220 nt of DNA from a phage. The stretch lies in the sequence record X05582.1, one strand, 5' to 3'. A program made the position numbers and the translations under genes. Shown here piece by piece: positions 1-220 of this stretch. How positions within the stretch are numbered: position 1 is the first letter of the stretch; each line of letters starts with the position of its first letter. The notes under the pieces are model-generated. The model was given only the letters and a program-made list of their open reading frames with translations. It was not told the DNA's origin and ran no database searches.

Positions 1-103
1 GCCTCTTCGCTATTACGCCAGCTGGCGAAAGGGGGATGTGCTGCAAGGCGATTAAGTTGGGTAACGCCAGGGTTTTCCCAGTCACGACGTTGTAAAACGA
101 CGG
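1..103 (-). CDS. lacZ: 5'-truncated lacZ (beta-galactosidase) coding sequence, no start codon or RBS of its own; native sequence resumes at about codon 9-10 and runs off the window at position 1
   Basis: Minus-strand translation in the frame with codons at plus 101-99, 98-96 and so on gives [33 protein letters not shown](A), which matches the E. coli LacZ N-terminal region as I recall it. The plus strand carries the M13/pUC universal primer sequences that sit inside lacZ alpha. Confidence 0.93.
65..88 (+). other. M13/pUC universal forward primer annealing sequences: -47 (CGCCAGGGTTTTCCCAGTCACGAC, 65-88) and -40 (GTTTTCCCAGTCACGAC, 72-88). A primer of this sequence extends toward the Mu end.
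   Basis: Exact string matches on the plus strand. Confidence 0.9.
92..103 (+). other. Truncated M13 -20 forward primer site (GTAAAACGACGG, then diverging into the BamHI linker instead of CCAGT)
   Basis: 12 of 17 nt of GTAAAACGACGGCCAGT are present. The break point is where native lacZ sequence is replaced by the linker. Confidence 0.85.
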
Positions 104-110
104 GATCCCC
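103..110. other. Synthetic BamHI linker / fusion joint (GGATCC at 103-108) joining the Mu end to lacZ; the junction codons read GGG GAT CCC on the minus strand
   Basis: GGATCCCGTCGTTTTACAACGTCGTGAC on the minus strand is the joint I recall from pMC1403-family and Mu dII protein-fusion constructs. A proline codon replaces native Ala9 of lacZ. Confidence 0.85.
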
Positions 111-143
111 ATGTAATGAATAAAAAGCAGTAATTAATACATC

Positions 144-165
144 TGTTTCATTTGAAGCGCGAAAG
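144..165 (+). other. MuA transposase binding site (R3-like), inverted relative to R1 and R2
   Basis: Plus strand TGTTTCATTTGAAGCGCGAAAG matches the consensus YGTTTCAYTNNAARYRCGAAAR at every defined position. Confidence 0.8.
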
Positions 166-171
166 CTAAAG

Positions 172-193
172 TTTTCGCATTTATCGTGAAACG
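172..193 (-). other. MuA transposase binding site (R2-like), directly adjacent to R1 and in the same orientation
   Basis: Minus strand CGTTTCACGATAAATGCGAAAA matches the 22-bp consensus with 1 mismatch (position 9, G for T). Confidence 0.75.
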
Positions 194-215
194 CTTTCGC
201 GTTTTTCGTGCGCCG
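194..215 (-). other. MuA transposase binding site, terminal (R1-like), degenerate in the outer half
   Basis: Minus strand CGGCGCACGAAAAACGCGAAAG against the consensus YGTTTCAYTNNAARYRCGAAAR (from memory): the inner half ..AAARYRCGAAAR matches fully, with 4 mismatches in the outer half. It starts 6 nt from the terminus. Confidence 0.65.
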
Positions 216-220
216 CTTCA

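What the first reader, a model, noticed from the sequence alone, without database searches (positions are those of the whole stretch)
1..220. Window is an engineered Mu d lac translational-fusion junction, not a natural locus
Every base is accounted for by three parts in this order on the minus strand: Mu right end, BamHI linker, 5'-truncated lacZ. This is the design of Mu dII-type (Casadaban-style) protein-fusion mini-Mu elements and related reporter plasmids. If it was found in a genome assembly it marks a laboratory strain, a reporter insertion or vector contamination, which matters more for interpreting the surrounding assembly than any novel biology.
Basis: partly seen in the sequence, partly recalled or inferred. 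Interest (0 to 1): 0.5.

Follow-up and report, generated by a model that had tools for sequence, protein, structure and literature searches.

The report
Engineered Mu-end to lacZ fusion joint
This 220-base stretch is a man-made reporter joint from the 1980s: the last 117 bases of phage Mu spliced in frame to a beheaded E. coli lacZ gene. It marks laboratory DNA and shows no new biology.

Summary
On the minus strand, window 220..104 is the extreme right end of phage Mu. It is 117 of 117 bases identical to Mu 36601-36717 and starts at the terminal 5'-TG. Window 103..1 is E. coli lacZ from nucleotide 26 of the coding sequence, 103 of 103 identical. No base is left over.

The BamHI site (103-108) is a hybrid. 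Mu's own GATC, which in native Mu continues GGGGATCACT, is joined to the CCGTC of a pMC1403-type 'lacZ. The window matches such a joint in a mini-Tn5 lacZ insertion over 110 bases.

One frame is open across all 72 codons with no in-frame start or stop; the other two frames are closed. Three matches to the Mu transposase-site consensus lie where R1, R2 and R3 are expected (0.07 expected by chance).

A published recombineering primer for MudK matches 55 of 55 bases across the joint.

The vehicle cannot be told from 220 bases: Mu dII, MudK, mini-Mu or lambda placMu. The window stops exactly at the Mu terminus, so there is no host flank. Already known; low interest.

The parts
104..220 (-). Extreme right (S / attR) end of phage Mu, 117 bp. 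This is Mu NC_000929 36601-36717. Window 220 is the terminal base of the phage: 5'-TG on the minus strand, ...CA-3' on the plus strand.
   Evidence: 100% identity over 117 nt to Mu AF083977 and NC_000929, E 5e-53. The exact identity run from the terminus is 117 nt, after which native Mu reads ACTTAGGG where the window reads CCGTCGTT.
194..210 (-). Match to the Mu transposase (MuA) binding-site consensus in the R1 position, nearest the terminus.
   Evidence: Consensus YMYNWRAARYRCGAAAR matched with 0 mismatches. Three matches were found in the window against 0.07 expected. The consensus was taken from the D108 record annotation, whose two annotated sites lie at the equivalent offsets of 11-27 and 32-48 from the end.
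172..188 (-). Match to the MuA binding-site consensus in the R2 position, same orientation as R1 and 22 bp from it.
   Evidence: Consensus matched with 1 mismatch. A 22-nt direct repeat, 168-189 and 190-211, with spacing 22.
149..165 (+). Match to the MuA binding-site consensus in the R3 position, inverted relative to R1 and R2.
   Evidence: Consensus matched with 0 mismatches on the opposite strand. Inverted repeat 155-166 / 193-204. Three MuA sites per Mu end (R1, R2, R3) are stated in PMC3362531.
103..108 (.). The only BamHI site (GGATCC), at the joint. It is a hybrid of Mu's natural GATC (104-107) and the C at 103, the first lacZ base (2nd base of codon 9).
   Evidence: Restriction-site scan. 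Native Mu reads GGGGATCACT. Native lacZ reads CTGGCCGTC.
104..110 (-). A 7-base zone (GGGGATC) identical both to native Mu and to the pMC1403-type polylinker GAATTCCCGGGGATCCC. The ligation point lies inside it.
   Evidence: The window is identical to Mu down to 104, and identical to the mini-Tn5 lacZ joint of L004 up to 110.
1..103 (-). 5'-truncated E. coli lacZ, coding-sequence nt 26-128. It lacks promoter, ribosome-binding site, ATG and the first 8 codons. Codon 9 is changed from GCC (Ala) to CCC (Pro).
   Evidence: 100% identity over 103 nt to lacZ in phage DE3 and many other records, E 2e-45. The offset to the annotated lacZ coding-sequence start is 26.
1..218 (-). Fusion reading frame of 72 codons with no stop and no ATG, GTG or TTG. 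The order is: TG of the Mu terminus (completes a host codon), 38 Mu-encoded codons ([38 protein letters not shown]), Pro, then lacZ from Val10 ([13 protein letters not shown]...).
   Evidence: Translation of the three minus-strand frames. Codon list with no in-frame start or stop.
72..88 (+). M13/pUC -40 universal primer sequence (native lacZ sequence). It points out of lacZ, through the Mu end, toward position 220 and any flanking DNA. The -20 primer site is destroyed by the truncation.
   Evidence: Exact match to GTTTTCCCAGTCACGAC. No match to GTAAAACGACGGCCAGT within 3 mismatches. The primer names come from my own knowledge.

Best explanation
The window is the reporter end of a Casadaban-type Mu-lac protein-fusion element: Mu dII301, the Mu dII1681/1734/4042 mini-Mus, MudK (= MudII1734), or the lambda placMu phages built from the same joint.

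Shown: the last 117 bp of Mu, cut at Mu's natural GATC, which overlaps the mom stop codon, are ligated to the BamHI end of a pMC1403-type 'lacZ that starts inside codon 9.

How it works. The 117 bp retain the terminal CA and three matches to the transposase-site consensus at the positions expected for R1, R2 and R3 (shown). MuA supplied in cis or trans, together with a Mu left end elsewhere in the element, can therefore transpose the element into random targets (inferred from established Mu biology).

The 117 bp are open in one frame, carry no in-frame start codon, and are in phase with lacZ (shown). Beta-galactosidase is therefore made only when the element lands in an expressed gene in the right orientation and in one of three phases, after the first base of a host codon (the phase follows from the sequence). 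The product is a hybrid protein: host N-terminus, about 40 linker residues, then LacZ from Val10. Its level reports both transcription and translation of the target gene (inferred).

The plus strand has the conventional Mu orientation and stops exactly at the Mu terminus. This suggests the source record is the element itself rather than an insertion with host flanks (inferred).
For: 1. Mu 36601-36717 matches at 117/117 and lacZ coding-sequence nt 26-128 at 103/103, with nothing left over.
2. Both native parents diverge from the window exactly at the GATC/CC joint.
3. The lacZ side, including GGGGATCCC, is identical over 110 nt to the EcoRI-SmaI-BamHI-'lacZ joint in an independent engineered transposon, a mini-Tn5 lacZ in L004.
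4. One open frame of 72 codons has no in-frame start or stop; the other two frames are closed.
5. Three MuA consensus matches against 0.07 expected, with an R1/R2 direct repeat and an inverted R3. This agrees with the D108 annotation and with PMC3362531.
6. The MudK-targeted recombineering arm matches 55/55 across the joint, and the Mud mapping primer matches 22/22. MudK is described as a lacZYA-npt element giving translational lacZ fusions in PMC3973593 and PMC3573128.
Against: The rest of the element (lacYA, resistance marker, Mu left end) cannot be seen in 220 bases.

No deposited record covers the joint in the phage, plasmid or complete E. coli genome collections. The 33-mer across the joint is absent from the genome, viral and metagenome contig collections. 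No full-length reference could therefore be aligned.

The figure of '117 bp' as the published Mu dII design, and the pMC1403 origin of 'lacZ, rest on my recollection of Casadaban & Chou 1984 and Castilho et al. 1984. Those papers are not held.
Confidence: 0.95

Rival explanations
1. The joint is the same, but the vehicle is not a Mud or mini-Mu element. It could be a lambda placMu protein-fusion phage, or a plasmid subclone or donor vector carrying the Mu S end::'lacZ cassette.
For: All of these were built from the same 117-bp joint (my own knowledge), and nothing in the 220 bases discriminates among them. The window ending exactly at the Mu terminus would also fit a deposited cassette or vector fragment.
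Against: No positive evidence for it. The only sequence-level literature match obtained is to MudK. No lambda or other phage record in the phage collection carries the joint.
Confidence: 0.2
2. Assembly or cloning chimera. A Mu or Mu-like prophage end and a lacZ-alpha vector fragment were joined by accident during ligation or assembly.
For: Both parents are common in laboratory E. coli. A 100%-identical Mu right end is present in S17-1, ST18 and the W lineage, and lacZ is present in nearly all genomes. Vector lacZ contaminates many records.
Against: The break falls precisely at a GATC/BamHI site. The first base of lacZ codon 9 is changed exactly as in pMC1403-type joints. The frame is preserved. 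A primer published in 2014 spans the very same joint over 55 nt. A random chimera would not reproduce all four.
Confidence: 0.02
3. An in vitro MuA mini-Mu lacZ reporter transposon of the type with two 50-bp R1-R2 ends.
For: Such lacZ protein-fusion reporter transposons exist (PMC3362531). The first 50 bases from the terminus are the standard R1-R2 segment, and the same 50 bases occur alone in L005.
Against: Identity to native Mu continues without a break for 117 bp and includes R3. There is no BglII or other engineered site after base 50.
Confidence: 0.01
4. A natural arrangement: a wild Mu-like prophage inserted in or next to lacZ, or a natural Mu-lac recombinant.
For: Mu inserts nearly at random, and Mu-like prophages with 98-100% identical right ends are common in E. 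coli genomes.
Against: A natural insertion puts the Mu terminus against host DNA. Here lacZ adjoins the interior side, 117 bp in, and replaces mom. The joint creates a BamHI site with a non-native base in lacZ codon 9. None of 5,426 complete E. coli genomes has the two halves adjacent.
Confidence: 0.005

Closest known systems
MudK = Mu dII1734(Km lac) and its siblings Mu dII301(Ap lac), Mu dII1681, Mu dII4042 and MudII PR13. These are Casadaban-type translational lacZ fusion Mu derivatives. The names and history come from my own knowledge. MudK's properties come from PMC3973593 and PMC3573128.
   Same: Mu right end with its terminus and R1-R3. A BamHI joint. 'lacZ without start signals. An open frame through the Mu end. 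Exact 55-nt and 22-nt matches to primers designed on MudK.
   Different: No difference is detectable. Which sibling it is cannot be decided, because the marker and left end are not visible.
lambda placMu protein-fusion phages (Bremer, Silhavy, Weinstock; my own knowledge)
   Same: They use the same Mu S-end::'lacZ joint for one-step protein fusions.
   Different: The backbone is lambda and Mu A/B is supplied by a helper. Not testable in this window.
pMC1403-type 'lacZ cassette, as seen in the mini-Tn5 lacZ insertion of Paraburkholderia terricola LMG 20594 (L004)
   Same: Identical over window 1..110: GGGGATCCC followed by lacZ from codon 10.
   Different: Upstream of GGGGATC, that construct has the Tn5 end, then SfiI, EcoRI and SmaI sites. 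The window has Mu sequence there instead.
Native phage Mu right end (attR) with mom
   Same: The 117 terminal bp are identical.
   Different: Native Mu continues into the mom coding sequence (GATCACTTAGGG...). The window switches to lacZ.
Mu dI(Ap lac) / MudJ transcriptional fusion elements (my own knowledge)
   Same: Mu-lac reporter transposons that read inward from the Mu S end.
   Different: Operon-fusion versions carry a lacZ with its own translation start behind trp-derived sequence. Here lacZ lacks its first 25 nt, and no start codon is in frame.

Membership tests
Casadaban Mu dII / MudK-type translational lacZ fusion element | Carries the extreme Mu right end, with the terminal 5'-TG...CA-3' and the MuA binding sites. 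| tested here: met
   117/117 identity to Mu 36601-36717, starting at the terminus. Three consensus sites against 0.07 expected.
Casadaban Mu dII / MudK-type translational lacZ fusion element | The Mu segment between the terminus and lacZ is short (117 bp in the published design, from my own knowledge) and open in the lacZ frame. | tested here: met
   The length is exactly 117. There are 38 full codons plus split codons at each side, with no stop. The other two frames have stops.
Casadaban Mu dII / MudK-type translational lacZ fusion element | lacZ lacks promoter, ribosome-binding site and first codons, and is joined through the pMC1403 BamHI site. | tested here: met
   lacZ identity starts at coding-sequence nt 26. 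There is no in-frame ATG, GTG or TTG. The sequence is identical over 110 nt to a GAATTCCCGGGGATCCC-'lacZ joint.
Casadaban Mu dII / MudK-type translational lacZ fusion element | Sequence identity to a named member across the joint. | tested here: met
   The MudK homology arm of yfp_cat_Fw matches 55/55, and mudY_out_up matches 22/22.
Casadaban Mu dII / MudK-type translational lacZ fusion element | The remainder of the element: lacZYA, a selectable marker and the Mu left (c) end. | not testable with these tools
   The source is 220 bases, and no longer record containing the joint was found.
Casadaban Mu dII / MudK-type translational lacZ fusion element | Inserted in a host gene with a 5-bp target duplication. 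| not testable with these tools
   The window ends at the last Mu base (position 220), so no flank is present.
In vitro MuA mini-Mu (50-bp R1-R2 ends) | Mu sequence is limited to the terminal 50 bp. | tested here: not met
   Identity to Mu runs for 117 bp and includes R3 at 149-165.
Transcriptional (operon) Mu dI / MudJ fusion element | lacZ keeps its own translation start. | tested here: not met
   The first 25 nt of lacZ are absent, and no start codon is in frame.
Native Mu or Mu-like prophage right end | Mu sequence continues inward into mom. | tested here: not met
   Native Mu reads GATCACTTAGGG and the mom coding sequence ends at 36602. The window reads GATCCCGTCGTT.

The most novel reading that the evidence does not exclude
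The window was taken from a genome or metagenome of a non-laboratory organism. It would then document persistence or escape of a MudII-type laboratory transposon outside the bench. Alternatively, it comes from a type or reference strain that is unknowingly a tagged derivative, like the lacZ-tagged plasmids I found in the two Paraburkholderia assemblies.
Probability: 0.03. Interest if true: 0.2.

Novelty: already known. Interest (0 to 1): 0.05.

Why it matters
Its only value is practical. The joint is a clean signature of engineered DNA. If it turns up in an assembly, it identifies a laboratory strain, a reporter insertion or construct contamination, and the surrounding sequence should be read with that in mind.

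The 33-mer TTCATTACATGGGGATCCCGTCGTTTTACAACG across the joint is absent from every public collection searched here. It therefore makes a specific screening probe. The window contains no new biology.

Tried and rejected
1. I looked for a full-length record carrying the joint. No record in the phage, plasmid or complete E. coli genome collections covers 80% or more of the window. The 33-mer across the joint has no exact match in genome contigs, viral contigs or metagenome contigs.

2. I looked for the pMC1403-type joint in PLSDB plasmids. All 1,307 matches start at native lacZ (query base 8), and none includes GGGGATC. The joint was found instead in one genome contig, L004, using a shorter pattern.

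3. An Rfam scan of both strands at E <= 1 found nothing.

4. I tried to read the original descriptions. Casadaban & Chou 1984 and Castilho et al. 1984 are not held. Full-text searches for 'Mu dII'+117, 'pMC1403'+'eighth codon' and '117 bp'+'bacteriophage Mu' returned nothing. Two broader searches were noise.

5. I considered and rejected four alternatives: a natural Mu insertion in lacZ, a random chimera, a 50-bp-end in vitro mini-Mu, and an operon-fusion Mu dI. The reasons are given under the rival explanations.

Full report
**What is in the sequence.** I read the window on both strands. The minus strand begins TGAAGCGGCGCACGAAAAACGCG... and ends in lacZ-like sequence.

BLAST against 50,697 phage records splits the window cleanly in two. 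Minus-strand bases 1-117 (window 220..104) are 100% identical to phage Mu 36601-36717, the very end of the 36,717-bp genome (E 5e-53). Minus-strand bases 118-220 (window 103..1) are 100% identical to E. coli lacZ, for example in phage DE3 (E 2e-45).

A base-by-base walk confirms runs of exactly 117 and 103 identical bases, which sum to 220. The DE3 annotation places the first lacZ base of the window at nucleotide 26 of the coding sequence, the second base of codon 9. G+C content is 39% for the Mu part and 55% for the lacZ part.

**The joint.** Native Mu reads ...CATGGGGATCACTTAGGG, and the mom coding sequence ends at 36602, inside that GATC. Native lacZ reads ...TCACTGGCCGTCGTT. The window reads ...CATGGGGATCCCGTCGTT.

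Mu was therefore cut at its natural GATC and joined to a 'lacZ end beginning CCGTC. This creates the only BamHI site in the window (103-108) and changes lacZ codon 9 from GCC to CCC.

A scan of species-representative genomes for GGATCCCGTCGTTTTACAACGTCGTGAC found one locus, L004. There the same 'lacZ is preceded by a Tn5 end, an SfiI site and GAATTCCCGGGGATCCC. This is the EcoRI-SmaI-BamHI polylinker that I recall as pMC1403's.

The window is identical to that joint over 110 bases, window 1..110. The seven bases GGGGATC (104-110) therefore belong equally to Mu and to the polylinker. No bases are contributed by a linker alone.

**Reading frame.** In the lacZ frame the whole window is open. There are 72 codons and no ATG, GTG or TTG in frame. 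The peptide reads [52 protein letters not shown]...

The other two frames have several stops each, three or more of them within the Mu part. The two terminal bases TG must complete a host codon. An in-frame fusion therefore needs insertion after the first base of a codon, which follows directly from the sequence.

Thirty-nine stop-free codons are not in themselves statistically remarkable. What matters is that this open frame is in phase with lacZ.

**Transposase sites.** The Mu consensus used in the D108 record annotation is YMYNWRAARYRCGAAAR. It matches the window three times with at most 2 mismatches allowed: at 194-210 (-), 172-188 (-) and 149-165 (+). The expectation from shuffles is 0.07.

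The first two are 22 bp apart in direct orientation and the third is inverted. This is the R1, R2, R3 arrangement. That each Mu end holds three MuA sites, and that the 50-bp R1-R2 segment suffices in vitro, is stated in PMC3362531.

[quoted passage not shown] The first 55 nt of its primer yfp_cat_Fw form the homology arm. These are TTCAAATGAAACAGATGTATTAATTACTGCTTTTTATTCATTACATGGGGATCCC.

That arm matches window 156..102 exactly and spans the Mu/BamHI joint. The outward mapping primer mudY_out_up matches window 140-161 exactly. MudK is described there, and in PMC3573128, as giving random translational lacZ fusions.

That MudK is Mu dII1734, and that Casadaban's Mu dII design uses 117 bp of the Mu S end fused to pMC1403 'lacZ, comes from my own knowledge. 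The original papers are not held.

**Mechanism.**
- Shown: the terminus, the three consensus site matches, the open frame in phase with a start-less lacZ, and identity to MudK across the joint.
- Inferred from established Mu and lacZ-fusion biology: MuA acts on this end together with a left end elsewhere in the element. Insertion into an expressed gene in the right orientation and phase gives a hybrid protein: host N-terminus, about 40 linker residues, then beta-galactosidase from Val10. Its activity reports transcription and translation of the target.
- The M13 -40 primer sequence at 72-88 (+) points outward through the Mu end. This is how such fusion joints are conventionally sequenced (my own knowledge). 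The -20 site is lost through the truncation.

**Context and limits.** The source is only 220 bases, so neither lacZYA, marker and Mu c end nor any host flank can be checked.

The plus strand has the conventional Mu orientation, and position 220 is the last base of Mu. I infer that the window is the final 220 bases of a record of the element itself.

No record in the three annotated collections contains the two halves side by side. The junction 33-mer is absent from the genome, viral and metagenome contig collections. Rfam finds nothing.

**Rivals.**
- A lambda placMu phage or a plasmid vehicle would carry the same joint and cannot be excluded.
- A random chimera is very unlikely. The break falls at a restriction site, the codon-9 change is as in the pMC1403 type, the frame is preserved, and a published primer spans the joint.
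- A 50-bp-end in vitro mini-Mu is contradicted by 117 bp of native identity including R3.
- A natural Mu insertion is contradicted by topology, since lacZ abuts the interior of Mu rather than its terminus. It is also absent from all 5,426 complete E. coli genomes.

**Verdict.** This is a well-known laboratory reagent from the 1980s. It is already known and of low interest, except as a flag for engineered DNA.

Noticed in passing
L005 130-179 (PQ065999.1, Proteus phage vB_PmiA_PM1, record 42010-42059): An exact copy of only the terminal 50 bp of the Mu right end (R1-R2, starting TGAAGCGG) sits inside an Autographiviridae phage genome. It lies near the record end and is annotated within a hypothetical protein. 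That 50-bp piece is the standard in vitro MuA transposon end. A MuA-based library-preparation remnant or an assembly artefact therefore seems more likely than biology.
   Followed up: partly
L004 3110-3180 (NZ_FRAB01000062.1, Paraburkholderia terricola LMG 20594): A species-representative genome carries an engineered mini-Tn5-type 'lacZ insertion: Tn5 end CTGTCTCTTGATCAGATCT, an SfiI site, then GAATTCCCGGGGATCCC-'lacZ. The insertion lies directly next to the traC/parA backbone of a broad-host-range plasmid (named IncP-1 from my own knowledge); this backbone is 100% identical to many plasmids. The assembly therefore contains a laboratory-tagged plasmid.
   Followed up: partly
L006 5976-10331 (NZ_CP026110.1, Paraburkholderia hospita DSM 17164 plasmid pEMT1): The plasmid carries lacZ, whose 5' 103 nt match the window 100%, followed by aph(3')-Ia. 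This looks like a lacZ-Km marker cassette rather than a native gene, although it is annotated simply as beta-galactosidase.
   Followed up: partly
Phage-collection hits H8-H10 (OR844963.1, OR845556.1, OR848931.1) and H5 (Z35638.1): Short unannotated 'phage' records of 1.5-3 kb from Enterococcus, E. coli O157 and Listeria phages match the lacZ 5' region at 98.1%. A phiX174-labelled record matches at 100%. These probably contain cloning-vector lacZ-alpha sequence.
   Followed up: no
E. coli genome hits H43-H53: A right end 100% identical to Mu over 117 bp occurs in the E. coli W lineage (W, LY180, KO11FL) and in the donor strains S17-1 and ST18. Many wild isolates carry a 98.3% variant like SfMu. 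Mu-end sequence alone is therefore not a marker of engineering. Only the joint is.
   Followed up: no
window 104-107; Mu 36600-36604 (L001 901-905): The natural GATC used to cut off the 117-bp Mu end overlaps the stop codon of mom, whose coding sequence ends at 36602. The fragment therefore carries essentially no mom coding sequence.
   Followed up: yes
window 220: The window ends exactly on the last base of Mu. This is unlikely for an arbitrary slice of a genome with an insertion. It suggests the source record is the element or construct itself, written in standard Mu orientation.
   Followed up: partly
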